The notes under the pieces are model-generated. The model searched no databases. It saw only the letters and a program-made list of their open reading frames with translations, and had not been told where the DNA came from. Source: a virus. Taken from it: a stretch of DNA of 13,526 nucleotides. The translations under genes and the position numbers were made by a program. Below, in pieces: positions 1 to 13,526 of the stretch; within the stretch, counting starts at the first letter, position 1, and each line of letters starts with the position of its first letter. Where the stretch lies: UHGV virus genome UHGV-1806156. One strand, written 5' to 3'.

Positions 1-98
1 TAAGGGAAAAGCTTAACCCACAAATGAAAGCCTAAAGAGCATGAGCGACTCTTTAGGCAATCTGTGTGGGGAACATCGGAGCAGTATGTGAAGTATGA
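1..98. repeat. Left copy of a 98-bp direct repeat (same as 13429-13526)
   Basis: Positions 1-98 match 13429-13526 base for base except one T/C difference (position 54 vs 13482). The repeat runs to both window edges, so its full extent is unknown. Confidence 0.9.
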
Positions 99-437
99 GC
101 AGACTGTGATGATGTGACTTATATCTATGCGTATAACAGCCTCCGCTGTTTACGCTCTTTGTGTGGGTCCGGCGAATGCGTCAGCATGAGGCCCACAATG
201 TGGACCGCTGCCGAAAGCTTGCCAGCGCCGGAAGGAGGCAGCAAAGAGTCTCCCGCGCGCATGTGTGGGCGTATACGTAAGATATACATTCATAAATCCA
301 ATTCTAGGCCCATAAATGGCCTTCTGGCTGCATTAACTAGTGTGAGTAGTGCAATTGCATTACCTGACCTCTAAATCGCGTTAGAATTGATTTTAGAGCG
401 CCTAAGGCAAAAAGTGCTCTCCCTCCCTTGTGGGCCA

Positions 438-630: not shown

Positions 631-780
631 GTGGAAATTACTGATGCAATAGCGATCATCAACCTGGCTGTACTGTGGTGCGGTGTTGCCTACATAGCCG
701 GAGTGACTGCAATCGACAATCTTGAAGAAAAAATGATAGATAAATACAAAAAGATTGTTGACAATTTGACGAATGTCTGA
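631..780 (+). CDS. Small ORF, 49 aa, GTG start, predicted single transmembrane helix (VEITDAIAIINLAVLWCGVAYIAGVTAIDNLEEKMIDKYKKIVDNLTNV)
   Basis: GGAGG at 621-625 sits 5 nt before GTG 631, stop TGA at 778-780. Hydrophobic N-terminal stretch. Below the 60-aa cutoff of the ORF track. Confidence 0.3.
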   Translation: MEITDAIAIINLAVLWCGVAYIAGVTAIDNLEEKMIDKYKKIVDNLTNV

Positions 781-786
781 TAAAAT
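758..786 (+). promoter_or_regulatory. Sigma70-like promoter candidate (-35 TTGACA 758-763, 17-bp spacer, -10 TAAAAT 781-786), likely driving the operon starting at 913
   Basis: Near-consensus hexamers with 17-bp spacing, about 125 bp upstream of ATG 913. Confidence 0.45.
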
Positions 787-912
787 ATAAAGCATAGGGT
801 AATTCTCATCATAGTGAATTTCCTTTAGTAGACTGGCGGGGGCTTGTCTTAAGTTCCCGTTTCTTTTTAATCATATATCGCACAGGTTAGTGAGCTGACA
901 GGAGATTGAATC

Positions 913-1128
913 ATGGCTAAAACCGGACCGATAAGCCAGCTGGTAAACTGGACTACTGACGAAATCGTCGAGAACGTGCTTAAAGGTAACTTTCGAAAAA
1001 CTTCCGTTTATGCATTTATTCGTAAACACAAAGGAGAATATCCACACATTGAAGCGGCAATTTTAGAACTGAATCGTCTCCGCCTTGAGCGTGAGCTGGC
1101 TAAATACACCAACAACATTAATAAATAA
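913..1128 (+). CDS. Hypothetical small protein, 71 aa
   Basis: ORF with AGGAGA RBS 7 nt upstream of ATG 913; first gene after a long non-coding region. No recognisable family. Confidence 0.55.
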   Translation: MAKTGPISQLVNWTTDEIVENVLKGNFRKTSVYAFIRKHKGEYPHIEAAILELNRLRLERELAKYTNNINK

Positions 1129-1141
1129 CTGTGGGGGAACT

Positions 1142-2038
1142 ATGGCAAGTAATTACGGGGAGGTTTTTAATCCCCATTTCGAACGCCTCATTCAGTATAC
1201 TTTTGATAAACCAGTTGCAACAACAATTGCTAATAAAAAGACTGGAAAAACAAAAGAAAGATTTAAGTTAGACCTGACGGAGGTTACAATTTATGGAAAA
1301 ATGGCAGGTTTTCATTTAAACGGGCAAGAAATATTTATCTCAGAGCAGACCTTAGCAAAAATATGTGGAGTGAGCGATAGAAAAATCCGTGATTCGATTA
1401 AATCTCTAGAAAATGCCGGGCTTATTTCTAAAGATAATCGGAAAGGCATGTCTAATATTTACAAACTACTAATTACTCCTTCACAGGTTTGCAAAATGTG
1501 TGACGCTCAAGGAATACAACCTATGAGCAATGCAGGTGGTGAAGATAAACAGCCTCAGGAAGCCCCAAAACAAGCCGCACAGCAAGCTAAAAAGGCTAAA
1601 GTAGTGCAATTGCCTACCCAAGACACTAAAGCGCCTCAAATTAACGCTGTTAGTGACAAGCCACGCCGGGGCCGTCCTGTGAAAGATGTAACCGATGGAG
1701 GGTGGATCGCCCTGGGTGAGAGTGAGGCTAAAGGCATAATGCGATCACTGTGGGAAAGCAAATACAAAGATTTAAACAAACGTCGCCCGATCCTTTTGTC
1801 AAAGATTCAGGAGGATTTTTACACCACAGAAGAGGTAAGCCGACATAAAGGGAAAATAGAGGGTGAAATCTGGAAACCGGAAGAATACTGGCATTTAACC
1901 AGACCTGTGTTTATTTTTGCAAATAAGCTTATTGGGATGGGATTTGAAATATTGTTAGATAAAACCTGCGGAGATTATCCCGAAATATTGTGGAGAAATG
2001 TTAGAAAAAATAAAAAAGGCATTTTAGAGTTTAAATAA
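1142..2038 (+). CDS. Putative replication initiator-like protein with winged helix-turn-helix, 298 aa
   Basis: ATG at 1142 preceded by GGGGGA RBS, right after the stop of the 913 ORF; the track's 1085 start is an upstream in-frame extension. The segment FISEQTLAKICGVSDRKIRDSIKSLENAGLISKDNRKG resembles the wHTH of phage and plasmid replication initiators. Function from motif recognition only. Confidence 0.45.
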   Translation: MASNYGEVFNPHFERLIQYTFDKPVATTIANKKTGKTKERFKLDLTEVTIYGKMAGFHLNGQEIFISEQTLAKICGVSDRKIRDSIKSLENAGLISKDNRKGMSNIYKLLITPSQVCKMCDAQGIQPMSNAGGEDKQPQEAPKQAAQQAKKAKVVQLPTQDTKAPQINAVSDKPRRGRPVKDVTDGGWIALGESEAKGIMRSLWESKYKDLNKRRPILLSKIQEDFYTTEEVSRHKGKIEGEIWKPEEYWHLTRPVFIFANKLIGMGFEILLDKTCGDYPEILWRNVRKNKKGILEFK

Positions 2039-3767: not shown

Positions 3768-4004
3768 ATGAATACCTACGAAAAGATTTATCAAAAACTG
3801 GTTAAGGACTCCGAAGACACGCCCGAAGGGGTGACAGTAGGTCACCTGCCAGAGGCAGCGAAAGAGGGGGCCACCATTATTAAAAGTGGCTCCCACACAG
3901 AAGGCCTCTCAATCGAAGAGCTGGCGGAGAAATATAATATTGATAAAGAGGCCCTGAAAAGGGCTATTTCATTATCAAAATCTTTAAGACAGGGCGAGGT
4001 ATAA
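3768..4004 (+). CDS. Hypothetical protein, 78 aa, translationally coupled between the acidic protein and the tape measure gene
   Basis: Starts 1 nt after the preceding stop and ends 1 nt before ATG 4006. Confidence 0.45.
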   Translation: MNTYEKIYQKLVKDSEDTPEGVTVGHLPEAAKEGATIIKSGSHTEGLSIEELAEKYNIDKEALKRAISLSKSLRQGEV

Positions 4005-4005
4005 A

Positions 4006-6153
4006 ATGGCAATGAAGGAAGTAGCCAGACTAACAAACGTTATTTACTGGGACTCTGATAAATCCTCCTGGCGAAAAGAAGTTAAACGGCTTGAGGATTA
4101 TAAAAAATCCTGGAAGAAAGCTACCGACGATATAGCTAAAGCTGATTTTAAATCTAATCAGGCTGTGCTCAGAACACAAAGAACACGCGCTAAGGTGGAA
4201 GAGCAGATAGCCAGAGCTCAGAGGAAACAACAGGAAGCACAGAAGAAACAACGTGCTCAGGCTGTCAGCCGTCTGACCGGGGGCAACAATGCCGAACTTA
4301 ACTCTATGCGCAAGTTCTACCAACAACAAGCCAGAGAAGCCGCCAGACAACAAAAACTGTTAGATCGTAGTGTTGGAGATGTTCAGCACAGAAAAGCACG
4401 TGTAGGGGCCAACAGTGCACGAATCAGCAGCATGTTTGATGGCTCCCTGGTTGCTCAGTTCCAGGGGCGCATTCAAAGAGTTAATGCTGATTATGCTAAA
4501 GGGGCTATAAACCTGCAGACCTATAATCAGAGGATGGCCCGACTCAGATCTGAAATGAAGATGGCAACAGCCGAAGCCGGAAAATTCCAGAGCAGACTAG
4601 ACAGAGCTGCGGCCGCAGGCTCCAGGCTGCATGACAACCTGGGGAAACTGAATTCCACACTGGGCAAGATAGCCATTGGCCTTACTGCCGCTGGCTGGGG
4701 TGTTCAGCGTGCTGTTAGTGGTGCTATGGGTAGCCTTGCAGATCGCAACAGTGCTTATTTCGGCTTAATGTCACAGAACAAGGATGATAAATCAAAAACT
4801 GATCAGCAGATGGCTTTTATCAAGAACACAGCCTACACCTACGGGATGGATCAGCGTGAGATGGAAGGCGGCTACATGCGCTTTGCTGCAGCTACCCCCA
4901 CCATGAAGGAATCTGATAAGCAGGCTCTCTTTGAGGCTATGGCTATTAAAGGCCGCTCAGTGGGTGCTACTGGCGAGCAACAGAACAGGGCGCTTGTTGC
5001 GGTCCAACAAATGGCTTCAAAAAATAAAGTCATGGCGGAGGAGCTGCGTGGGCAGCTGGCAGAAGCCTTTGCAGGCTCACAACAGGACTTCCAACAGGCC
5101 GCTATTGATGCCGGAATCATCAAAAATACCCAGGAATTCGATAAAGCCCTTAAAGATGGCAAAATCACCCTGGACAAGCTACTTCCTTCCCTAGTGAAAA
5201 TTTGGGGTGCTGCAAAAGAAACTAAAGCTTTTGCTGAATCCATGAAACAGCCAGAAGTAGCAATGCAGCGCATGAAAAACAGCTTTAACGAGCTGGCGAT
5301 TCAGTTTATGGGTGTTGTGGATCCTGCGGATGGCGTTATTAGCTTATCTGAATCTCTGATCTCCATCTTTGAAGACCTCACCACTGATATGGACGGCAGC
5401 GGGAGCGCGGCAAAACAGTTCGGTGAGGCAGTCGGGTCTGCCATGCGTGAGATCATGTATTGGGTAGGCTTCGCTAAGGGATATATTGAGGTCAAGGCTA
5501 AAGAGTTCGGCATGACCGGATCAGAGGTTGGCGAGCTTATCGGGAAACTGGTAGTCGGCTTAGCTGGTCTGAAAGTTATTACCACACTGCTTTCCCCTCT
5601 AACCGGATTTGTTTCACTTGTCACCCAACTGATTTCTCTGATAGGCAAGATTCCAGGTCTGGGCAATCTCGTTAAGGGTGCTGGCGGGGCAGTCGCTGGA
5701 AGCCCAACAACAGCATTAGCCGCTGGCAGTGCCGCAGGTGTGGGTGTTGGTGTCGCTGGCGCACTAGGCGCTAAGACGGTAGGTGAGAAGTTCAGAGGAT
5801 GGATGCAAAGCAAGGCTGATCAGTTCGGGGAGTGGGCTAAATCTAAAGGCCTGCTTAGCGATGAACAGGACGCTATGACCAAACCGGGGGCCTATAACCA
5901 TAGCTACATCAACAAGGGAGCTTCCTTTAATCCATATCCAACCATTAGCCCTTCACGTCCTACTCCTAGCACTGGTACGGCTATTCAGAATGGCGGATAT
6001 CAACCAGTCCAAGTAAATGTAGCCCCACAAGGTGAGATTTCCGGCAAATGGGAGATAACCATCGATGAGGGGGGAATTGCCAGGGTGATCCAGAAGGAAG
6101 TTAGCGATCAGTTGGATTGGAAAGCCACACAGGAATCTAACCAGCTTTTCTAA
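4006..6153 (+). CDS. Phage tail tape measure protein-like, 715 aa
   Basis: Long Q/R/K/A-rich helical N-terminal region, a central segment that reads like a tape-measure domain (AAATPTMKESDKQALFEAMAIKGRSVGATGEQQNRALVAVQQMASKNKVMAEELRGQLAEAF), and a Gly/Ala-rich hydrophobic block (LAGLKVITTLLSPLTGFVSLVTQLISLIGKIPGLGNLVKGAGGAVAG...). Recognised by eye, not by search. Confidence 0.6.
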   Translation: MAMKEVARLTNVIYWDSDKSSWRKEVKRLEDYKKSWKKATDDIAKADFKSNQAVLRTQRTRAKVEEQIARAQRKQQEAQKKQRAQAVSRLTGGNNAELNSMRKFYQQQAREAARQQKLLDRSVGDVQHRKARVGANSARISSMFDGSLVAQFQGRIQRVNADYAKGAINLQTYNQRMARLRSEMKMATAEAGKFQSRLDRAAAAGSRLHDNLGKLNSTLGKIAIGLTAAGWGVQRAVSGAMGSLADRNSAYFGLMSQNKDDKSKTDQQMAFIKNTAYTYGMDQREMEGGYMRFAAATPTMKESDKQALFEAMAIKGRSVGATGEQQNRALVAVQQMASKNKVMAEELRGQLAEAFAGSQQDFQQAAIDAGIIKNTQEFDKALKDGKITLDKLLPSLVKIWGAAKETKAFAESMKQPEVAMQRMKNSFNELAIQFMGVVDPADGVISLSESLISIFEDLTTDMDGSGSAAKQFGEAVGSAMREIMYWVGFAKGYIEVKAKEFGMTGSEVGELIGKLVVGLAGLKVITTLLSPLTGFVSLVTQLISLIGKIPGLGNLVKGAGGAVAGSPTTALAAGSAAGVGVGVAGALGAKTVGEKFRGWMQSKADQFGEWAKSKGLLSDEQDAMTKPGAYNHSYINKGASFNPYPTISPSRPTPSTGTAIQNGGYQPVQVNVAPQGEISGKWEITIDEGGIARVIQKEVSDQLDWKATQESNQLF

Positions 6154-6655: not shown

Positions 6656-7114
6656 TCAGCCTCTCCCAACATTTGACCAGTATTTGATTGCACCGATCAA
6701 ATCATCATAGTGGCGCATTGCATCATTGAAGCCTTTATAGCTTGCCCATTGTGGGGAAACCTTGTTATTGCTGAATTGCCCACTAATCAGGATAGTCTCC
6801 AGAATGTCGGCATATCGCTTACCAATACGCTTTCTGACGGCCTCAGAGCTCCCACCCTTTACGATTGCATTAATCAGGGCTTTTGTGTGTCTCAGGCTCT
6901 CATAGAGCATTGCAGCGTGGGCAGATTCCATAAAGGAGCGCTTAGGCAAATCACCCCACCCCTCAGAGTGGATAGCCGCCAGTGTGGCGTAATTCAGGCC
7001 GCTATAGTGCTTTCCGTCATCCCAGCCAACCGCTACACCTTCCATCTGTGAGAGCTCTTTATGCAGCTTATCCATCATGCGCTTGTCTATGGTGCAACGG
7101 ACTTTCGGACTCAT
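6656..7114 (-). CDS. HK97 gp10-like head-tail (neck) family protein, 152 aa
   Basis: Segment GVAVGWDDGKHYSGLNYATLAAIHSEGWGDLPKRSF fits the pattern I associate with the HK97 gp10 family. GGAG RBS upstream; ATGA overlap with the preceding gene. Confidence 0.45.
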   Translation of the reverse strand: MSPKVRCTIDKRMMDKLHKELSQMEGVAVGWDDGKHYSGLNYATLAAIHSEGWGDLPKRSFMESAHAAMLYESLRHTKALINAIVKGGSSEAVRKRIGKRYADILETILISGQFSNNKVSPQWASYKGFNDAMRHYDDLIGAIKYWSNVGRG

Positions 7115-7914
7115 TTGTTGATCTCCGTGATGTCATCAAGCAACATGTTGGCCTTATCAATCATCGTTTCGTGGAATTCATTCGACACAACAGACTTATC
7201 ACCTGCGGCAATCTTTCCAGCTGCCTCTCCCTGTGCATATTCCCCGCGATGCTTAGCCCTGGTAGATTTCGTAGCAGCATTGCCAGCGTTACTACCCTCT
7301 TTAGCACTGTTAACAGCACCCTTTTGCTGTGTTTTATTCACCTTCTTACTGTTAGTGAAAACTCCGGCATTTTCGACCATCTTCACCTTGAAGGTGCGGA
7401 ATTCTTCAAAGGTGCAATCGATAGTGATGCAGTCACCGGAGGAAGAGCTACGCTTAACTTCACATTTCGTCATGATGAAGTTCTCAAGGAGTCCGGCATC
7501 TTCACTCACCAGGCTAACCAGCTGGCGCTTGTCTCTCATTTCCATAAGTGCCTGAACAGCGGCAGCAGGGCGCATAGATTCACGGGGATTATCTGGATCA
7601 GTGTTCCGGTCGATGTAGTTCTCTTTCCGGATAATGTGAGGGGAAGAGGTAATAATACCCGTAAAGCTGACAGATTTATCTTTAATGACGGCATGGTCTG
7701 ACATGGTGGTGCCATCTTCTACTGCATAGCTCGACTTTTCGACAGGGAACGAATAACGAACATCAGAGATAGAGTCAAAGAAGATAGCCACATTATCGGT
7801 ATAGTTGAAGCCATCCATTATATTTTTGTTTTGTGAATATCCCCCACACATAACAGTGAATGCGGGAGATCTCGACTCAGCTTGTTTTGCAGCTGTCAGA
7901 GCATCACTAGCCAT
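7111..7914 (-). CDS. Hypothetical protein, 267 aa (start placed at the ATG at 7914)
   Basis: Minus ORF 7111..7941 begins at a GTG; the in-frame ATG at 7914 has GGAGG 10 nt upstream. Normal amino-acid composition, unlike the Cys/Ser/Leu-rich plus-strand ORFs it overlaps. Confidence 0.55.
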   Translation of the reverse strand: MASDALTAAKQAESRSPAFTVMCGGYSQNKNIMDGFNYTDNVAIFFDSISDVRYSFPVEKSSYAVEDGTTMSDHAVIKDKSVSFTGIITSSPHIIRKENYIDRNTDPDNPRESMRPAAAVQALMEMRDKRQLVSLVSEDAGLLENFIMTKCEVKRSSSSGDCITIDCTFEEFRTFKVKMVENAGVFTNSKKVNKTQQKGAVNSAKEGSNAGNAATKSTRAKHRGEYAQGEAAGKIAAGDKSVVSNEFHETMIDKANMLLDDITEINK

Positions 7915-8042
7915 AGTAAACATGCCTCCAAATTGGTCCACTTCATGGATTTGGCTAAAGCCAAACCTGCAAAAGATGCAGGCAAAATAGAACTTATCGT
8001 TGCCCTGCGTGAATTCTGATAAAAAGACAGGGCTATCTATCG

Positions 8043-8303
8043 TTATTTTGCAAAACGATTATGCGCATTCAGGGCTTTTTTGCGGTCCTGGGCTTGTTTG
8101 CGTGCAATAAAATGTTCGAAAGTCTCGGCCCAGGTGCATTTATTATATTCACGGTATTTATGCATAGCCTGGCGGCTAACGTCATAGCAGGCGGCAAATG
8201 TGGAGATACGCAGGAATTCCGGCAGATCCTCGTCATCGATATGGATAATATCAAAAGGCACGTCGTCACGGTCGCCGTATAAAACAATTTTCATAAAAGA
8301 CAC
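8043..8303 (-). CDS. Small HTH DNA-binding protein, 86 aa
   Basis: GAGGTG RBS upstream of ATG 8303. HTH-like segment LRISTFAACYDVSRQAMHKY. Role unknown. Confidence 0.5.
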   Translation of the reverse strand: MSFMKIVLYGDRDDVPFDIIHIDDEDLPEFLRISTFAACYDVSRQAMHKYREYNKCTWAETFEHFIARKQAQDRKKALNAHNRFAK

Positions 8304-8327
8304 CTCAAAAACTTAAGACGGGGATAA

Positions 8328-8377
8328 CAAAAAAGGGAAGAGGGAAAGACCTATCCCCGATCTCTCACCTCTTCCCT
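8328..8377 (-). terminator. Hairpin terminator just downstream of the capsid gene (stem AGGGAAGAGG 8334-8343 / CCTCTTCCCT 8368-8377)
   Basis: 10-bp stem followed on the minus strand by a T run (plus-strand A 8328-8333), immediately after the capsid stop at 8384-8386. Confidence 0.45.
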
Positions 8378-8383
8378 TTGCTT

Positions 8384-9418
8384 TTATTTAGCCTTGGCAG
8401 CGGCGGCGGTGTTTTTAACACTCACTTTCACCACAACTTCAGGCATCATGTTCATGAAAGCATAAGAGGATTCAACGAAGATTTCGCGTTTGCCTCTGGA
8501 CTCTTCCATATACATGAAAGCTTCACGTGCAGCGCCGTTTGCCAGCTTCAGGTTGCGAGCGCAAGGGCCGAAAAATTGAGTATAAACGCCCACCATATCG
8601 CCTAACGCATGCGGCTGGAACTGTGGGACTAGATAAGCAGTATTCTCTGGCAGACTATCCATTTGCACCACACGCAGGGCTAAGCCCGGAATGCGGAAGG
8701 TCGGGAAGCCCGGCAGAATATCCTCAGGGAACATCAGACCTTTGTCGGTAATGTTCTGATTGCCGAACAACAGCACTTTACGGAGCAGTTCATCAGTCTG
8801 AATAGCGGTAAACAGTTCAGCACGGCAGAACAGGGTGAAACCACGCAGGGCACGAACGACACCACGCTGTTTAACCTTGCTCAGTGCAACCAGGTCCTGC
8901 AGCTGTTTAAGGATATCTTTAGCTAGATCCACTTCTGAAGTGGTTTGCTGTGCGCCCAGCAGTTCGCACACATTCAGTTCTTTACCCTTGGTGAGGATAA
9001 TTTTGTTCTCAAAGAGAGCAAGCTGGCGTGCTTCTTCGTGGGTCTGGCGTAAGCCTTCGCCAAGCTGAATAACACGACGAGCGGTTACAGACTCTAGATT
9101 CTCTTCGGAATCTTTGCCCGGAACACGGATACCCTGCCAGTCAGAAGGATAAATAGCACTTGATGCGGCAGTGAATGCCATATCACCCGTGCCCGTTTCA
9201 CGCTCATCTGCGGTAATGGTCGCCATCTGTTCACCGTAGCGCGGATACTGACCGAAAGCGGTTTGTTTCACCTGGCGAACTTTGTCATATTCAAATTTAA
9301 AGGTATTGCACAGAGCAGTAGTGTTGAAGATATCCATTGCAGAAATAATCATGTTATCCGGCGGGATATCTTTAATCAGACCACACAGATCGCGAACTTC
9401 GAATTCTTTCTTAGCCAT
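8384..9418 (-). CDS. Major capsid protein, lambda gpE family-like, 344 aa
   Basis: ATG at 9418 with AAGGAGG RBS 8 nt upstream; the track's extension to 9517 has no RBS. N-terminus FEVRDLCGLIKDIPPDN fits the L-x-G-x-[IV]-x-x-x-PP pattern seen in gpE-family capsids. Size (lambda gpE is 341 aa) and a small beta-rich gene directly upstream agree. Confidence 0.6.
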   Translation of the reverse strand: MAKKEFEVRDLCGLIKDIPPDNMIISAMDIFNTTALCNTFKFEYDKVRQVKQTAFGQYPRYGEQMATITADERETGTGDMAFTAASSAIYPSDWQGIRVPGKDSEENLESVTARRVIQLGEGLRQTHEEARQLALFENKIILTKGKELNVCELLGAQQTTSEVDLAKDILKQLQDLVALSKVKQRGVVRALRGFTLFCRAELFTAIQTDELLRKVLLFGNQNITDKGLMFPEDILPGFPTFRIPGLALRVVQMDSLPENTAYLVPQFQPHALGDMVGVYTQFFGPCARNLKLANGAAREAFMYMEESRGKREIFVESSYAFMNMMPEVVVKVSVKNTAAAAKAK

Positions 9419-9429
9419 TTTCAACCTCC

Positions 9430-9765
9430 TTATTGTGCAACACGCAAATCGCCATTGCTGGCAGCAACAACAGCGGCTAAGCCGTCTTTGTCCACATAGG
9501 CCGGATTGATGTAGCAACCTTTGTTCGCAACAACGATAAAGGAATCACCAACTTCAGCACGTTCTACAACCAGCAGCGGAGTTTTATCTGTGTGCGTTGC
9601 TTTAACGAAGGTCTCAACCTCGCCAGCCTCAGTCACCACAACAACAGTGCCAGCCGGAATCTCAGCCTTAACTTTGTTTTTAACTTCAACGTCGCGAATA
9701 CTAAATTGCTCATCTGCGGCGTATGAAATGATGTGTCCGCGTGTGCGGATAGTCATATCTCTCAT
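9430..9765 (-). CDS. Putative head decoration protein (lambda gpD-like), 111 aa
   Basis: AGGTGA RBS before ATG 9765. Small, beta-rich (Val/Thr/Ala/Gly), immediately upstream of the capsid gene as in lambda D-E. Assignment is positional and compositional. Confidence 0.4.
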   Translation of the reverse strand: MRDMTIRTRGHIISYAADEQFSIRDVEVKNKVKAEIPAGTVVVVTEAGEVETFVKATHTDKTPLLVVERAEVGDSFIVVANKGCYINPAYVDKDGLAAVVAASNGDLRVAQ

Positions 9766-10093
9766 TTGATCACCTGCGATTTAAATTAACTCCCCTCAAA
9801 GGGCTCAGGTATAACCTCTCAAACCACGACAGGCTCGGGCCGAAAAGTTATGCCGGAAATCTAAAGGGGGATTGATATAAGGAGAGGGAGATAGCCCCGC
9901 ACCGTCCAAGCGGGGGCTATTCCACATGGGGAAACCAACAACAGTTGGCTGATAGTTCACTGCATGGTTACAGGTTGCTAGAGAGCACTATCACGAAAGG
10001 CACTCCCCCGGATCAGTTCAGGCTGCGGTCACATCAGCGGGGAAATACCTTTCGGGATAGCTACCCACACAGAAAACCCGCAAAAGAAAACTG

Positions 10094-10102
10094 TGTGGAT
10101 AA
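10094..10102 (-). promoter_or_regulatory. DnaA box (TTATCCACA on the minus strand) inside an inverted repeat (CCACACAG 10065-10072 / CTGTGTGG 10091-10098)
   Basis: Exact 9-mer match to the DnaA box consensus, read directly. Confidence 0.35.
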
Positions 10103-10248
10103 CTAGCCCTGTAGGGAGAATAAGGAGAATTAATCGACCACTCTAAGATGATCATGGGTAGTGTTATTTATAAGGCGGCACCGCTACCTGGTCGCCTTTA
10201 CTTTGGAGGAAAATACGGCAAATCACCTTCGCTAAATGATTCACGGTA

Positions 10249-10268
10249 TACTGTATATTATATCAGTA
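10249..10268. promoter_or_regulatory. LexA (SOS) box-like palindrome TACTGTATATTATATCAGTA
   Basis: CTG-N10-CAG architecture with flanking TA and an AT-rich core, as in gammaproteobacterial LexA boxes. Lies in the large intergenic region between the capsid operon and the small-peptide operon. Confidence 0.45.
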
Positions 10269-10546
10269 TTTACTCACATTGTCAACACCCTGATTATATA
10301 AATTCTAATAATTAGCGTAGTAACGGTATTTTCAGACTGCTATCAATCCCATCAATACGTCATCTCATCGCATCTATCATAACTTTTTCATTCGTGATAG
10401 ATATCTTTTGATCAATATCAATGTTTTCCGGGGATTTGCCCGGCTATAGTTCGAATCAAGGAAGGGGAGCATTGATAGAGACACCCAAAGGGGTGACTGA
10501 AAGTCACCTGGCATAGCCAGTGAAAGCACCCAACCGAACAAACAAA

Positions 10547-10796: not shown

Positions 10797-11057
10797 ATGA
10801 CGGGGGCTAAAGATATCAGGAGACTGAGGGAAGAGCTGATAGCTGAAATTAAAACTAAGGCAAAGCAAATGGAGATAGCCGCACAAATGGATGTAGCGGA
10901 ACAGATGTACAAGATGGTTGAGGAGGGAACGCCACGACAGGTTATCGCTAAAACCTTCGGTGTGGGGATCGCCACCGTGCACAGAAGGCTGAAAGCATAT
11001 GCTGACTACCACAATATCGAGAGAAAGGAGGATGGGAGATTCAGGAAAGCTAAATGA
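10797..11057 (+). CDS. Small DNA-binding protein with a Hin/resolvase-type C-terminal HTH, 86 aa, no recombinase catalytic domain
   Basis: GAGAGGAG RBS before ATG 10797. C-terminus EEGTPRQVIAKTFGVGIATVHRRLKA closely matches the Hin invertase HTH; the N-terminus is a short charged helix only. Confidence 0.55.
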   Translation: MTGAKDIRRLREELIAEIKTKAKQMEIAAQMDVAEQMYKMVEEGTPRQVIAKTFGVGIATVHRRLKAYADYHNIERKEDGRFRKAK

Positions 11058-11114: not shown

Positions 11115-11702
11115 ATGAACATTAAAACTATCATTGCAGCCCTCACCATTGCCTTTAGTGCCAACACCGCAGCTATTGATGTAGGGGCCGTAAAAGATGC
11201 ATCTTGTGCTGATAAACTGGCGGCACTTGATGCGGGATTCGATGCACCCCAGGGCTATCAAATGGGGCTATCTCTTAAAAATATTATTCTCCCCATGGAA
11301 TCTGGCGCTTATGTATACGGAGCGATAGGAAAACTGGAGAAGCCGGAAATTGACCTGCAGGGTGTGAGAGCGAAGATCACTAAAAGAAATGAAAGCCTTT
11401 GTGATGTAGCTGAAATAGCTTTCATGTCAGACGATGAAAAATCTATTTTAGTCTTTTGCAAAGATAGCGATGATAATGATCGCTTCTTTAAGATCACCCA
11501 CAACAGGCCAATCTCTTTCTACTCTAATGCTACTATGGGCGCGGGTATGCAGTGGCTGAAGAGAGCTAAATTAACTGAGATCGACATTGAAAAAGAGGCC
11601 AATGCAGGCAGTTATGGATTCTGGAAAGGCTGGACTAAATACACGTTCCAACAATGCGGCATCGATAGTCAGGCCTACGACAACGGATTTTGGTTTTTCT
11701 AA
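11115..11702 (+). CDS. Secreted or outer-membrane protein with N-terminal signal peptide, 195 aa
   Basis: N-terminus MNIKTIIAALTIAFSANTAA has the basic/hydrophobic/A-x-A shape of a Sec signal peptide. C-terminus ends in aromatics (GFWFF), as many outer-membrane beta-barrels do. No family recognised. Confidence 0.55.
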   Translation: MNIKTIIAALTIAFSANTAAIDVGAVKDASCADKLAALDAGFDAPQGYQMGLSLKNIILPMESGAYVYGAIGKLEKPEIDLQGVRAKITKRNESLCDVAEIAFMSDDEKSILVFCKDSDDNDRFFKITHNRPISFYSNATMGAGMQWLKRAKLTEIDIEKEANAGSYGFWKGWTKYTFQQCGIDSQAYDNGFWFF

Positions 11703-11800: not shown

Positions 11801-13063
11801 TTAATCCGTTTTATGCCACAACCGCCCGGTTGACAGAGTAAGATAGAGTGTGTAACCCTCTTTCGTAATACCAATAAAATCAATAGTTTAGCTCAATTGG
11901 CCTTTTCTCTATTTTTGTCAAATTTAACATACCCTCAAAAACTGCAAAATCTGGCTGCAAGATTATCTGCAGCTGGATTTCTTGCGCCTCAATTTGTGGT
12001 ATCACCCTGACTAGTTTGTGCATAAATTGAACAGTTTTTAACATTTCCTCCTCACCTGGTAACCACACAAAAAGCTAAAAACGAGGCACAGATAATCTTA
12101 GAGGCCTGTTTTCTTGTTATCACTCTGGTAACGTCGTAGAAGTGATTTTGATGAAAGATGACCTACCCTATTACACCCCCATTTTTTGTTATCACAATTG
12201 CATCCTGTGCGGTGTATGGCTATGTGCTGAAAGCGGTCTTATGTGTGGGTGTCAGAAATATCCATTAGCGGTATTAATACCCGTCGGAGATTCGTCTGAG
12301 GTGCCAGGCAGGCGCTCCCCCACCTCCCTTTTTTCTTCTAACAATTCTCAAATATCACACCACTGCCCACCACGTTGCTATTATGTTAATTCTTAAGCTT
12401 TGCTGTATGTTGTGCACATTATTTATTCAGGTGGCTGTACGTAAATTCTGTGCCCACTGATCATGATTTTTAAATCAGATTTTGTAGTGCGCTTTATTAG
12501 TGTAGATAAGATCTATTATGTTAAATGCATCTCTCTCAACACTTAAAATCAATGACTTAGAGGTTAGGATGCACTAACACCCCACACAGCACATTAGACA
12601 TATAGATGTCTATACCCCACATTTTTGATTGTTTTGTAGTCATTCCCCTGATCATTTAACCAGTATAGTTTGCTCCCTGCAGACCACAAAATCGGAATTT
12701 ACATCTGATTAACATAATCTGTTAGCATGATCACCATTACCCACACAACAATAACCACATGTAAGCCTCTTCAGGCAATTTATCGGCGTGTTGGTGTGAA
12801 CAGTCTTTCATGTTCTTTATGTATTCATTGTCCTGTGTGAGGGAAGGATGGACTGCCCCAGGGGCCATACTTATGATGCCCGGTCAACATACCTGTCGAT
12901 AAAATCAAAGGGTGTTGATCTGCATATTTCCCACACATGAGAGGAAATCAAAGCAAAGAGAGAGGAGAGAGGTTTGTTAGTCAAAATAGGTCAATAAGGG
13001 TGTATTTCCACACAGACATGATGAGATAACCTGTCGGTATTTCCTACAACTCTTGCACATACC

Positions 13064-13341
13064 CCGGAAGATTTTTCCGGTGTCTCCCACCTGTGAAGAA
13101 TTTTCACACCTGTAAATCCATACAGCACGGTAAAAACTACCGCACCACCTGTGAAAATATTTTACTACTCCCTTTAGTCATACCCCTTTCAGTCATACTC
13201 AGGCACCACACCCCGGTAAATATTTCCCTACCACCCCGGAGAATTTCTCCGGTGTCCAAGCTGTATCCAATACATACCCCGGAAAATTTCTCCGCACTAC
13301 TACGGAAGATTTCTCCGGTGTACCCCGGAAGATTTCTCCGA
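13064..13341. repeat. Iteron-like array of at least 8 copies of a 17-bp quasi-palindrome (consensus about CCGGARRATTTCTCCGG)
   Basis: Copies at 13064-13080, 13236-13252 (perfect palindrome CCGGAGAATTTCTCCGG), 13279-13295, 13302-13318 and 13325-13341, the last three spaced exactly 23 bp apart. Related variants at about 13094-13108, 13150-13164 and 13214-13226. Confidence 0.6.
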
Positions 13342-13428
13342 CTAATAAATAAAGTAATAGACCACACAATAGATCCCCCCTAACCCCCAAGGGGAATGGG
13401 GAGGGATCAGAGAGTGGGGAAGGTTTTC

Positions 13429-13526
13429 TAAGGGAAAAGCTTAACCCACAAATGAAAGCCTAAAGAGCATGAGCGACTCTTCAGGCAATCTGTGTGGGGA
13501 ACATCGGAGCAGTATGTGAAGTATGA
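13429..13526. repeat. Right copy of the 98-bp direct repeat
   Basis: Matches 1-98 with one mismatch (C at 13482 vs T at 54). Confidence 0.9.

What the first reader, a model, noticed from the sequence alone, without database searches (positions are those of the whole stretch)
8384..9765. Orphan decoration plus major capsid pair with no cognate protease, scaffold or portal
The two-gene operon has the lambda D-E order and is closed by its own terminator. In lambdoid phages these genes sit inside a block with portal, protease and scaffold; here the upstream neighbour is about 800 bp of regulatory DNA. An isolated capsid gene in a small element recalls SaPIbov5 Ccm, a capsid homologue that redirects helper capsid size. 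This capsid may co-assemble with or replace a helper capsid protein.
Basis: partly seen in the sequence, partly recalled or inferred. Interest (0 to 1): 0.7.

Follow-up and report, generated by a model that had tools for sequence, protein, structure and literature searches.

The report
Capsid genes of a plasmid phage-satellite
The two genes do encode a lambda-style capsid shell protein and its cement protein, but they are not orphans: they head the structural module of a 13.4 kb E. coli plasmid that looks like a previously undescribed satellite of the large virulent rV5-like (Vequintavirus) phages.

Summary
Window 9765-9430(-) encodes a 111-aa protein with a confidently predicted gpD/SHP decoration fold. 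Window 9418-8384(-) encodes a 344-aa lambda gpE-family (PF03864, HK97-type) major capsid protein. A strong terminator follows, and no portal, protease, scaffold or terminase is detectable anywhere on the element.

The "orphan pair" reading is only partly right. The window is a complete circular 13,428-bp E. coli plasmid. Downstream on the same strand, in synteny kept across four diverged lineages, lie a small HTH-like ORF, a tail-tube-initiator homologue and a neck/tail-completion homologue. The other operon ends in a tape-measure gene. All four recognisable structural proteins have their closest phage relatives in Vequintavirinae (24-50% identity). Three non-coding plasmid segments match Vequintavirus intergenic DNA at 80-96%. 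Both main plasmid promoters have the architecture of that phage's structural-gene promoters. All structural genes are under purifying selection.

My best reading (confidence about 0.55) is a plasmid-type satellite that supplies its own shell, cement and tail-lumen proteins and borrows everything else from a virulent rV5-like helper. This is a new variant of a known kind. Satellite-plasmids (2026) and PICI gpE-like genes are known, but not this gene set or this helper. There is no experimental evidence.

The parts
9430..9765 (-). 111-aa head decoration (cement) protein with a gpD/SHP-like fold
   Evidence: AlphaFold pLDDT 82, pTM 0.77. Foldseek PDB: SHP 1td0, lambda gpD 8xqb_J0 and 1c5e at TM 0.57-0.66, then the PhiTE, YSD1, Bas63, Sf11 and T1 decoration proteins. 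BFVD hits are head decoration, DUF2190 and capsid-fibre proteins. No sequence family. dN/dS 0.13-0.15.
8384..9418 (-). 344-aa major capsid protein, lambda gpE family (PF03864), HK97-type, no delta domain
   Evidence: PHROG 29 E=7e-21. hhalign against phage PF03864 proteins: 95.9%, E=6e-9, full length. 24% identity to Vequintavirinae capsids over 97% of its length. Sister lineages pass the Pfam cut-off. Foldseek hits are all HK97 capsids. dN/dS about 0.1.
8325..8383 (-). Intrinsic terminator directly after the capsid gene, probably partial
   Evidence: Hairpin plus T-run, dG -32.6, z -5.7. No promoter-like site lies between it and the next genes. Bas57 has the same arrangement after its capsid gene.
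10257..10285 (-). P_cap, promoter of the capsid operon (TTGACA-17-TATAAT with TG, 12/12)
   Evidence: It shares the TTGACAAT-N14-TGATAWAATA layout with P_rep and with Bas57 structural-gene promoters.
9766..10250 (-). 485-nt structured 5' leader of the capsid operon
   Evidence: MFE -173.5 kcal/mol, z -5.5, 0 of 100 shuffles as stable. Its function is unknown.
10475..10526 (.). 50-nt element shared with Vequintavirus non-coding DNA, 190-240 nt upstream of P_cap
   Evidence: 88% identical to Bas57 90900-90951, which lies inside a 2.5-kb gene-free region. Conserved in E. coli plasmid variants.
3815..3865 (.). Second copy of the 50-nt phage-like element, inside the 78-aa ORF
   Evidence: 80% identical to the first copy and to Bas57. 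One hairpin carries a compensatory change, CTGGC/GCCAG to CTGCC/GGCAG.
8043..8303 (-). 83-86-aa HTH-like protein, conserved between the capsid and tube-initiator genes in all lineages
   Evidence: Synteny and 32-51% identity across lineages. Only weak HTH hits, plus one member hitting PF16677 (P22 small terminase gp3) at E=0.002. Role inconclusive.
7111..7941 (-). Tail tube initiator (Dit-like) homologue
   Evidence: PF21821 E=7e-25. 50% identical to the Bas57 'tail tube initiator', E=6e-66. PhiTE tube initiator 9cuy_K, E=2e-34. dN/dS 0.04.
6656..7114 (-). Neck1/tail-completion-like protein
   Evidence: PHROG 222 E=8e-29. 43% identical to Bas57 gp11, E=9e-40; that gene lies between the tail-capping and sheath genes. 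No solved relative. dN/dS 0.02-0.09.
4006..6153 (+). Tape measure protein, 715 aa
   Evidence: PF20155. PHROG 5255 E=5e-184. 26% identical to the Bas57 TMP (778 aa), E=4e-21. PhiTE TMP 9cuy_W, E=7e-20.
758..786 (+). P_rep, promoter of the rep-to-TMP operon, related to P_cap
   Evidence: 11/12 with TG. Part of a 62-nt inverted copy of the P_cap region (I1). A terminator-like hairpin follows at 835-861.
1085..2038 (+). Plasmid replication initiator (winged-HTH, Rep-O-like)
   Evidence: PF13730 and PHROG replication-initiator families. Swapped between plasmid variants, 39-72% identity.
150..380 (.). About 250-nt non-coding module shared with E. coli Vequintavirus genomes; core at 197-259
   Evidence: 61-63 nt at 84-87% identity in 123 rV5-like phage records, always in unannotated DNA. 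The central hairpin has two double compensatory changes and a 22-nt invariant loop, and there is no conserved ORF. It has the same order and spacing relative to iteron-like repeats in phage and plasmid.
13060..13349 (.). Iteron-like 23-nt repeats (TACCCCGGAAGATTTCTCCGG, at least 5 copies)
   Evidence: Presumed origin region; not tested.
10797..11057 (+). 86-aa HTH protein transcribed divergently from the capsid operon; candidate regulator
   Evidence: PHROG 664 DNA-binding, E=6e-7. Homologues occupy the same position in sister lineages L007 and L009.

Best explanation
The pair encodes the shell (a gpE-type HK97-fold major capsid protein) and the cement (a gpD/SHP-type decoration protein) of a particle made by a 13.4-kb circular plasmid. 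That plasmid is a satellite of virulent rV5-like (Vequintavirus) myophages of E. coli.

Shown:
- The identity of the two proteins.
- The element is an autonomous plasmid.
- It also carries homologues of the helper-type tape measure, tail-tube initiator and a neck/tail-completion protein.
- It lacks portal, protease, scaffold, terminase, sheath, tube, baseplate and fibre genes.
- It shares short non-coding elements and a promoter architecture with Vequintavirus genomes.
- All of its structural genes are under purifying selection.

Inferred:
- On infection by a helper, the two near-consensus extended -10 promoters, which have the same layout as the helper's structural-gene promoters, express the module.
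- The satellite capsid protein, locked by its own cement protein, builds a small shell of roughly T=3-4. This shell forms on helper portal, using helper scaffold and protease.
- Helper terminase fills that shell with plasmid concatemers by headful packaging. The small head excludes the ~137-kb helper genome.
- The partial terminator after the capsid gene sets high shell/cement output and low output of the downstream genes.
- The satellite's tape measure, tube initiator and neck protein build or adapt a helper-derived contractile tail that joins satellite heads.
For: Protein identities.

Plasmid status:
- Circular records of 13.2-13.7 kb in 7 of 5,426 complete E. coli genomes, never chromosomal.
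- The window's two ends overlap by 98 nt.

Helper link:
- Capsid, tube initiator, neck protein and TMP all find their best phage relatives in Vequintavirinae.
- The helper has the same decoration-then-capsid gene order.
- Three non-coding segments are 80-96% identical to Vequintavirus intergenic DNA, and 123 phage records hold the 61-nt core.
- The motif TGRTAHAATA marks 14 Bas57 sites against 3.3 expected, 12 of them in the structural region. On the plasmid it marks exactly the two main promoters.

Dependence on a helper: no other morphogenetic genes, and no ORF large enough to be a portal or large terminase.

Functionality:
- dN/dS of 0.02-0.30 for all structural genes.
- Five-gene synteny kept across lineages whose capsids are only 40-82% identical.

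Divergence pattern: tube-initiator and neck proteins stay 39-52% identical to the phage, as close as the satellite lineages are to one another. The capsid is 24% identical and the cement protein is unrecognisable. This fits parts that must dock onto helper components versus a self-contained shell-plus-cement pair.

Helper biology: Vequintavirinae have T=13 heads, circularly permuted genomes and probable headful packaging, and PhiTE performs generalized transduction (PMC11972413; PMC7344957).
Against: - There is no experimental evidence of induction, packaging or transfer.
- The element is absent from IMG/VR viral contigs.
- No co-occurrence with a Vequintavirus could be shown.
- No recognisable small terminase or pac site. 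The conserved HTH-like ORF gives only a weak gp3-like hint.
- At 24% identity it is unclear that the satellite capsid protein can use the helper's portal, scaffold and protease.
- The near-consensus sigma-70 promoter predicts expression without a helper unless it is repressed, and no repressor was identified.
- One variant is 30 kb because of a resistance-gene insertion, which would not fit a small head as a monomer.
- The promoter motif was defined post hoc.
- The shared short elements are not thermodynamically exceptional.
- The capsid structural model is of low confidence.
Confidence: 0.55

Rival explanations
1. Size redirection by co-assembly, as with Ccm or the PICI 'capsid morphogenesis' gene. 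The gpE-like protein does not build the shell alone. It mixes with, or caps, helper capsid protein so that hijacked helper subunits close into a smaller shell. The gpD-like protein stabilises that chimeric lattice.
For: Helper and satellite capsid proteins belong to the same family and align collinearly, with conserved N-arm residues F6, D10 and P19 and a conserved C-terminal motif. Enterobacterial PICIs and the Vibrio PISP carry a PF03864-type gene that is presumed to act this way (PMC10085698; PMC13230959). SaPIbov5 Ccm is a further precedent (my own knowledge).
Against: Identity is only 24%, with an 18-21-residue insertion and a 14-residue deletion relative to the phage proteins, so mixed capsomers seem less likely. 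The element also carries its own cement protein, which is unrelated in sequence to the helper's. That implies three-fold sites formed by satellite subunits. Capsid and cement genes co-diverge across the lineages.
Confidence: 0.2
2. Defence plasmid with decoy structural proteins. The diverged capsid, TMP, tube-initiator and neck homologues act as dominant-negative poisons of Vequintavirus head and tail assembly. They protect the bacterial population, and the plasmid itself is never packaged.
For: Satellites and other mobile elements commonly block helper assembly; the Tai systems target tail assembly, for example (PMC11364771). The homologues correspond to low-copy nucleating parts of the tail, where a poison would be effective. 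The element is absent from viral-contig collections.
Against: A decoy needs neither a matched cement protein nor strong purifying selection on a full-length capsid protein together with its partner across four lineages. There were no PADLOC hits. The shared cis elements and the tight 13.2-14.3 kb size of most members fit mobilisation better.
Confidence: 0.12
3. Decaying remnant of a phage or phage-plasmid. The structural genes are leftovers with no current role on a cryptic plasmid.
For: The gene set is fragmentary, and PLSDB types the element as non-mobilizable.
Against: dN/dS is 0.02-0.30 for all structural genes. The ORFs are intact and syntenic in lineages with saturated synonymous divergence. 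The regulatory architecture is conserved.
Confidence: 0.03
4. Autonomous miniature virus whose portal, terminase and tail genes hide among the unannotated ORFs.
For: Six ORFs (71-195 aa) have no assignable function.
Against: None is large enough for a portal or a large terminase. There are no sheath, tube or baseplate homologues.
Confidence: 0.02

Closest known systems
PISP and cf-PISP, the satellite-plasmids of Vibrio crassostreae (Nat Commun 2026, PMC13230959)
   Same: These are small circular plasmids (11-16 kb) interpreted as phage satellites. PISP carries a PF03864 'capsid protein E' homologue. None has an integrase.
   Different: PISP adds a head-maturation protease, a small terminase and a MerR regulator. 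cf-PISP carries a full head module (PF05065 capsid, portal, protease, adaptors, terminases). Both have ParA/RepA and lack tail genes. The element here has none of those head or packaging genes and no ParA. It does have a gpD-like cement gene plus TMP, tube initiator and neck protein. It occurs in E. coli and points to a virulent Vequintavirus helper.
Enterobacterial PICIs with a 'capsid morphogenesis' gene (PMC10085698)
   Same: A satellite-encoded gpE-family capsid homologue that is thought to alter or replace the helper capsid so that phage DNA is excluded.
   Different: PICIs are chromosomal islands with an integrase, an AlpA/Stl-type regulator, a primase-replicase and a TerS or Rpp, and they exploit temperate lambdoid helpers. 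None of those components was found here. The sequence relationship to the PICI PF03864 clade was not tested.
SaPIbov5 Ccm
   Same: An HK97-fold capsid homologue carried by a satellite that lacks portal and protease genes.
   Different: It is a Gram-positive chromosomal island. Ccm works with helper capsid protein, and there is no decoration partner and no tail genes. This comparison rests on my own knowledge and was not tested here.
P4 (with helper P2)
   Same: It can persist as a plasmid. It makes a small head for an ~11.6-kb genome and encodes its own capsid decoration/stabilisation protein (Psu).
   Different: P4 uses the helper's capsid protein, re-sized by the external scaffold Sid. It has no capsid or tail genes of its own and its helper is temperate. 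This comparison rests on my own knowledge.
PLE (helper ICP1) and Aci01-2-Phanie
   Same: Both are satellites of virulent myophages. PLE makes small capsids. Phanie makes its own capsid and borrows a contractile helper tail.
   Different: PLE is integrated and re-sizes the helper's coat protein with TcaP. Phanie is a phi29-like lytic mini-phage with its own replication and packaging machinery (cited in 10.1101/2025.06.18.659913; details from my own knowledge).

Membership tests
Lambda gpE / Phage_cap_E (PF03864) major capsid proteins | Sequence membership in PF03864 | tested here: met
   The window protein itself gives no Pfam hit at E<=0.1. Its 51%- and 40%-identical sister proteins score 54.1 and 37.6 bits against a cut-off of 22.9. 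A satellite-only profile aligns full-length with PF03864 phage proteins at 95.9% probability, E=6e-9.
Lambda gpE / Phage_cap_E (PF03864) major capsid proteins | HK97 fold | tested here: inconclusive
   The model has pLDDT 44 and pTM 0.40. All 10 Foldseek hits with E<=1e-3 are HK97 capsid proteins, but TM-scores are only about 0.35. The secondary-structure order fits (E-loop hairpin, a 30-residue spine helix, then the A-domain).
Lambda gpE / Phage_cap_E (PF03864) major capsid proteins | Assembles an icosahedral shell | not testable with these tools
   Needs expression and electron microscopy.
gpD/SHP-type head decoration (cement) proteins | gpD/SHP fold | tested here: met
   Model pLDDT 82. SHP 1td0 and 1td3 and gpD 8xqb_J0 and 1c5e match at TM 0.56-0.66 and probability 1.00. 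About 30 top hits are decoration proteins.
gpD/SHP-type head decoration (cement) proteins | Sequence membership in a decoration-protein family | tested here: not met
   No Pfam, PHROG or PDB sequence hit. hhalign against Vequintavirinae decoration proteins gives probability 0.3%. Only 3 full-length clusters appear among 1.84 billion representatives.
gpD/SHP-type head decoration (cement) proteins | Gene lies immediately upstream of a gpE-type capsid gene | tested here: met
   An 11-nt gap. The order is the same in Bas57, CB7 and KaOmega.
gpD/SHP-type head decoration (cement) proteins | Trimer that binds quasi-three-fold sites | not testable with these tools
   No multimer prediction or structure was available.
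SaPIbov5 Ccm-type capsid-size redirection | Satellite-encoded HK97-type capsid homologue without portal or protease | tested here: met
SaPIbov5 Ccm-type capsid-size redirection | Co-assembly with helper capsid protein to change head size | not testable with these tools
   Needs particle composition data.
PICI (enterobacterial type) | Integrase and chromosomal integration | tested here: not met
   No integrase hit was found. All 10 places in complete genomes are on plasmids.
PICI (enterobacterial type) | Primase-replicase module and an AlpA/Stl-type regulator | tested here: not met
   The replication protein is a winged-HTH Rep-O-like initiator. There are no AlpA or primase hits.
PICI (enterobacterial type) | Capsid morphogenesis gene (PF03864-type) | tested here: met
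   Its relationship to the PICI clade itself was not tested.
PICI (enterobacterial type) | Small terminase or Rpp for packaging redirection | tested here: inconclusive
   The only lead is one member of the 83-aa HTH-like family hitting PF16677 at E=0.002, below threshold.
cfPICI / cf-PISP | Complete head module: portal, protease, head-tail adaptor and connector, terminases | tested here: not met
   No hits were found, and no ORF is large enough.
cfPICI / cf-PISP | No tail genes | tested here: not met
   TMP and tube initiator genes are present.
Phage satellite (general) | Helper-dependent packaging and transfer | not testable with these tools
   Only indirect evidence is available: homologues, cis elements and promoter class shared with Vequintavirus.

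The most novel reading that the evidence does not exclude
This is a previously unrecognised class of satellite-plasmid that parasitises large virulent Vequintavirus phages by re-tooling both ends of the virion. It builds its own small gpE/gpD shell without any portal, protease or scaffold gene. It also supplies the three proteins that line and terminate the tail lumen (tape measure, tube initiator, tail-completion/neck). It uses mimics of helper cis elements and helper-type promoters to be expressed, replicated or packaged during a lytic infection. Variants can carry antibiotic-resistance cassettes.
Probability: 0.35. Interest if true: 0.85.

Novelty: new variant of a known kind. Interest (0 to 1): 0.72.

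Why it matters
rV5-like phages are common coliphages and are used in therapeutic and biocontrol cocktails, and no satellite of them has been reported. A plasmid that hijacks them would be a new route of gene transfer in E. coli. One variant already carries strA/strB-type and tetracycline-related genes. It could also be a hidden cause of phage-treatment failure or interference.

Mechanistically, the element would test two things:
- Whether a satellite can replace the capsid shell while still using a foreign portal, scaffold and protease.
- Why a satellite would need its own tape measure, tube initiator and neck protein.

No characterised satellite combines these features. The shared non-coding elements also point to still-unknown cis sites of Vequintavirus replication or packaging.

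Tried and rejected
- Megablast of the whole window against phages: no match.
- tblastn of the 111-aa protein against phages: no match.
- Profile search of the 111-aa family over 1.84 billion representatives: only 3 full-length clusters.
- hhalign of the 111-aa family against the Vequintavirinae decoration proteins: no homology.
- Rfam on the window and on the phage gene-free region: nothing near threshold.
- IMG/VR scans with the capsid and cement proteins: nothing.
- GTDB species-representative scan: nothing.
- Metagenome scan: only 96-99% relatives.
- PADLOC and NCBIfam on the unassigned ORFs: nothing significant.
- PDB profile search for the neck protein: nothing.
- The idea that the two phage-shared short elements are stable RNAs: folding z-scores of -0.4 to -2.1 are not exceptional. 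I therefore describe them only as conserved cis elements with some compensatory changes.
- The idea that the plasmid promoters are the Certrevirus early-promoter type (TGTTGAC-N17-TATAAT): that strict pattern is rare in Bas57 (5 sites), so I dropped it in favour of the late-region extended -10 motif.
- The 39.6-kb 'trimer' record as evidence for packaged concatemers: rejected, because one copy is heavily degraded, which points to a long-read assembly artefact.
- Co-occurrence of a Vequintavirus with the plasmid in complete E. coli genomes: no Vequintavirus DNA is present in that collection.
- Literature searches for a described rV5 satellite or for these plasmids: none found.
Full report
**1. 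What is at the coordinates**

The finding spans two minus-strand ORFs. One is a 111-aa gene at 9765-9430, preceded by an AGGTGA ribosome-binding site. The other is a 344-aa gene at 9418-8384, preceded by AGGAGG, and it starts 11 nt after the first gene's stop. Directly downstream is a long hairpin followed by a T-run (8390-8325). It folds at -32.6 kcal/mol, z = -5.7, and none of 200 shuffles is as stable.

**2. The 344-aa protein is a gpE-family capsid protein**

- It matches PHROG 29 'major head protein' (E = 7e-21).
- It aligns over 97% of its length with the capsid proteins of rV5-like phages at about 24% identity.
- A profile built only from plasmid-family sequences aligns end to end with a profile built only from phage PF03864 (Phage_cap_E) proteins. 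hhalign gives probability 95.9%, E = 6e-9, over 296 columns.
- Against PDB sequences, only capsid proteins appear.
- Proteins of two sister lineages, 51% and 40% identical to it, pass Pfam's own threshold for Phage_cap_E.
- The AlphaFold model is poor (pLDDT 44), so I do not rely on its geometry. Even so, all ten significant Foldseek hits are HK97-fold capsid proteins, including ICP1, PhiTE (a Vequintavirinae member), Sf14 and Bas63.
- It has no N-terminal extension, so no fused scaffold (delta) domain.
- Relative to the phage proteins it carries an 18-21-residue insertion (about residues 235-255) and lacks a 14-residue segment.

**3. The 111-aa protein has the gpD/SHP decoration fold**

By sequence it is nearly an orphan. 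It has no Pfam, PHROG or PDB match and no tblastn hit in 50,697 phage records. Only three full-length clusters turn up among 1.84 billion representatives. There is no profile similarity to the decoration proteins of Vequintavirinae.

With a seven-sequence alignment it models confidently (pLDDT 82, pTM 0.77). The best structural matches are phage 21 SHP and lambda gpD (TM 0.56-0.66, probability 1.0). These are followed by the decoration or cement proteins of PhiTE, YSD1, Bas63, Sf11, HFTV1, Pam3 and T1, and by the phi29 head-fibre base. BFVD gives the same picture. Trimerisation was not testable.

**4. The pair is not orphan**

The window is a whole replicon:
- Its first and last 98 nt are the same sequence, so the unit length is 13,428 bp.
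- It matches circular 13.2-13.7-kb plasmids in 7 of 5,426 complete E. coli genomes, and never a chromosome.

On the same strand, after the terminator, come three further genes:
- An 83-86-aa ORF.
- A Dit-like gene that is 50% identical to the Bas57 'tail tube initiator' (E = 6e-66) and matches the PhiTE tube initiator in the PDB (E = 2e-34).
- A 152-aa gene that is 43% identical to Bas57 gp11 and matches PHROG 222, 'tail completion or Neck1'.

The other operon ends with a 715-aa tape measure protein related to the Bas57 and PhiTE TMPs.

Contigs of three further lineages (capsid 82%, 51% and 40% identical) keep the order cement, capsid, small ORF, tube initiator, neck. Each also has a long non-coding stretch upstream, and where the contig extends far enough there is a divergently transcribed HTH gene.

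No promoter-like site lies between the terminator and the downstream genes. Bas57 also has a strong terminator immediately after its capsid gene. So the terminator is best read as the usual partial stop that keeps shell proteins abundant and downstream proteins scarce. It does not mark the end of an isolated operon.

**5. What is missing**

No portal, prohead protease, scaffold, terminase, sheath, tube, baseplate or fibre homologue was found in any of the following:
- Pfam, PHROGs and NCBIfam.
- tblastn of all plasmid ORFs against the complete Bas57 genome.

The unassigned ORFs are 71-195 aa, too small for a portal or a large terminase. The element therefore cannot make particles on its own.

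**6. Which phage**

All four recognisable structural proteins find their best phage relatives in Vequintavirinae, and the E. coli Vequintavirus members score best.

The divergence pattern is uneven, and that is informative:
- Tube initiator and neck proteins are 39-52% identical to Bas57. That is about as close as the satellite lineages are to each other.
- The capsid is 24% identical, and the cement protein is unrecognisable by sequence.

This is what one expects if the former must dock onto helper parts while the shell and its cement interact mainly with each other.

There is also nucleotide-level evidence:
- A 61-63-nt core (window 197-259), within a ~250-nt mosaic, is 84-87% identical to unannotated intergenic DNA in 123 rV5-like phage records.
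- A 50-nt element is present twice on the plasmid, at 10475-10526 and 3815-3865. It is 88% and 80% identical to a site inside a 2.5-kb gene-free region of Bas57.
- A 24-nt stretch (12333-12356) matches the same phage region at 96%.

The central hairpin of the first element shows two double compensatory changes between phage and plasmid around a 22-nt invariant loop, and no ORF is conserved. In both phage and plasmid it sits about 280 nt from an array of iteron-like repeats. These elements are not thermodynamically exceptional, so I treat them as conserved cis sites of unknown function (origin, packaging or regulatory). They are conserved among the E. coli plasmid variants but not detectable in the diverged lineages.

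**7. Regulation**

The capsid operon is preceded by a perfect extended -10 sigma-70 promoter (10285-10257) and a 485-nt leader that is strongly structured (z = -5.5).

A related promoter (758-786) drives the rep-to-TMP operon. The two share a 62-nt region.

Intergenic regions upstream of Bas57 structural genes share the layout TTG(A/C)CAAT-N14-TG(G/A)TA(A/C)AATA:
- The -10 motif occurs 14 times in Bas57 against 3.3 expected, and 12 of those lie in the structural region.
- On the plasmid it occurs exactly twice, at the two promoters. The expectation is 0.21, and 2 of 200 shuffles reach two matches.

I defined the motif after seeing the data, so this is moderate evidence that the plasmid's operons are wired like helper late genes. 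A promoter this strong implies repression in the absence of a helper. The divergently transcribed 86-aa HTH protein is the obvious candidate, but this was not tested.

**8. Are the genes functional?**

Pairwise dN/dS between plasmid variants:

| Gene | dN/dS |
|---|---|
| Capsid | 0.08-0.10 |
| Cement (111 aa) | 0.13-0.15 |
| Tube initiator | 0.04 |
| Neck | 0.02-0.09 |
| TMP | 0.13-0.30 |

The replication initiator, by contrast, is swapped between variants (39-72% identity) while the structural genes stay 95-100% identical. The structural module is therefore the conserved core of the family, and the replicon is exchangeable.

**9. Most likely mechanism**

I interpret the element as a plasmid-type satellite of virulent rV5-like phages.

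What is shown is the parts list, the homologies and the shared cis elements. What follows is inferred:
- During helper infection the satellite capsid protein, locked by its own gpD-like cement, forms a small head on helper portal with helper scaffold and protease.
- Helper terminase packages plasmid concatemers by headful. Vequintavirinae are circularly permuted and probably use headful packaging, and PhiTE performs generalized transduction (PMC7344957).
- The satellite TMP, tube initiator and neck protein assemble with helper tube, sheath and baseplate into a tail that joins satellite heads.

The helper-type head is T = 13 for about 142 kb (PMC11972413). Scaling by the empirical P2/P4 and 80alpha/SaPI1 ratios (my own knowledge, rough) gives about 15 kb for T = 4 and about 9 kb for T = 3. 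A 13.4-kb genome therefore fits a T = 3-4 shell.

The satellite TMP is only about 8% shorter than the Bas57 TMP (715 against 778 aa). Tail-length change is thus unlikely to be the point of carrying it. Specific fit between the TMP, its initiator and the neck, or interference with helper tails, seems more likely.

Overall confidence is about 0.55.

**10. Rivals**

- **Co-assembly and size redirection** (about 0.2), as in Ccm or the PICI 'capsid morphogenesis' gene. It remains possible because both capsid proteins belong to one family and share N-arm and C-terminal motifs.
- **A pure defence or decoy plasmid** (about 0.12). It is harder to reconcile with a co-evolving capsid-plus-cement pair.
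- **A decaying remnant** (about 0.03). The selection data contradict it.
- **An autonomous mini-virus** (about 0.02). The ORF sizes contradict it.

**11. Comparison with what is known**

- A 2025 review knew of only one plasmid that is a phage satellite, an inovirus satellite (PMC12282955).
- A 2026 paper then described the Vibrio satellite-plasmids cf-PISP and PISP (PMC13230959). cf-PISP has a full head module. PISP has a PF03864 capsid E homologue plus a protease and a small terminase. Both have ParA/RepA and no tail genes.
- The same paper counted 356 PF03864-type proteins in published PICIs.
- The SatelliteFinder paper lists 'capsid morphogenesis' as a core PICI component in Proteobacteria whose mechanism is only presumed (PMC10085698).

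So a satellite-borne gpE-like gene and a plasmid lifestyle each have precedent. I found no precedent for any of the following:
- This combination of capsid plus gpD-like cement plus TMP, tube initiator and neck, with no portal, protease, terminase, integrase or ParA.
- Occurrence of such an element in E. coli.
- The link to Vequintavirinae.

**12. Verdict**

The element is best filed as a new variant of a known kind (a phage satellite). It is of real interest, but it rests entirely on computational inference.

Noticed in passing
window 150-380 (core 197-259); Bas57 131729-131791; L011:2501-2561: A ~250-nt non-coding mosaic is shared with E. coli Vequintavirus genomes. The 61-63-nt core is 84-87% identical in 123 phage records. 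Its central hairpin has two double compensatory changes around a 22-nt invariant loop. In both phage and plasmid it lies about 280 nt from iteron-like repeats. It may be an origin or packaging module.
   Followed up: partly
window 10475-10526 and 3815-3865; Bas57 ~90900-90952: A 50-nt element is present twice on the plasmid, once upstream of the capsid promoter and once inside the 78-aa ORF. It is 80-88% identical to a site in a 2.5-kb gene-free region of Bas57. Window 12333-12356 matches the same phage region at 96%.
   Followed up: partly
window 758-786 (+) and 10285-10257 (-); Bas57 structural region: The two strongest plasmid promoters are related over a 62-nt repeat. They share the layout TTGACAAT-N14-TGATAWAATA with promoters upstream of Bas57 structural genes. 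That motif has 14 sites in the phage against 3.3 expected, 12 of them in the late region.
   Followed up: partly
window 9766-10250 (-): The 485-nt leader between the promoter and the 111-aa gene is unusually structured (z = -5.5). No canonical terminator lies inside it. Its function is unknown.
   Followed up: partly
window 835-861 (+): A terminator-like hairpin lies about 45 nt downstream of P_rep. It could be an attenuator or part of copy-number control for the replication operon.
   Followed up: no
L015 (E. coli contig NTNY01000053.1, 30.1 kb), locus 13400-21041: A variant of the element carries an insertion between the neck and TMP genes. The insertion holds two aminoglycoside phosphotransferase genes (strA/strB-like), an IS transposase and TetR-family genes. 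This more than doubles the element's size.
   Followed up: partly
window 1085-2038 compared with L001 and L002: The replication initiator is exchanged between plasmid variants (39-72% amino-acid identity) while the structural genes stay 95-100% identical. The family is a mosaic.
   Followed up: partly
window 8043-8303 (-): A small ORF is conserved between the capsid and tube-initiator genes in all lineages. It has an HTH-like core (LRISxxAxxxGVSRQ). One member weakly hits the P22 small terminase family PF16677 (E = 0.002). It is a candidate packaging-specificity factor or regulator.
   Followed up: partly
window 11115-11702 (+): This 195-aa ORF has an N-terminus that reads like a Sec signal peptide (MNIKTIIAALTIAFSANTAA). 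It has no family hits, and variant L001 carries a different gene at this position. It looks like a variable cargo slot beside the HTH gene.
   Followed up: no
L002 (NZ_CP043822.1, 39.6 kb): This record is three tandem copies of the unit, but one copy has fragmented, low-identity structural genes. That suggests a long-read assembly artefact rather than a natural trimer.
   Followed up: partly
PLSDB record CP057073.1 (137,565 bp, E. coli, cattle faeces): This 'plasmid' has the size of a Vequintavirus genome and a capsid gene 23.8% identical to the query. It is evidently an rV5-like phage genome recovered from a bacterial isolate, perhaps in a carrier state. No equivalent exists in RefSeq complete E. 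coli genomes.
   Followed up: partly
window 1-98 and 13429-13526: The two ends of the window are 99% identical, so this is a circular contig with an assembly overlap. The true unit is 13,428 bp.
   Followed up: yes
window 8384-9418 (-), residues ~235-255 and ~206: Relative to phage gpE-like capsids, the satellite capsid has an 18-21-residue insertion (LPGFPTFRIPGLALRVVQMDS) and lacks a 14-residue segment. These are candidate determinants of altered shell curvature. They could not be placed on the fold because the model is poor.
   Followed up: no
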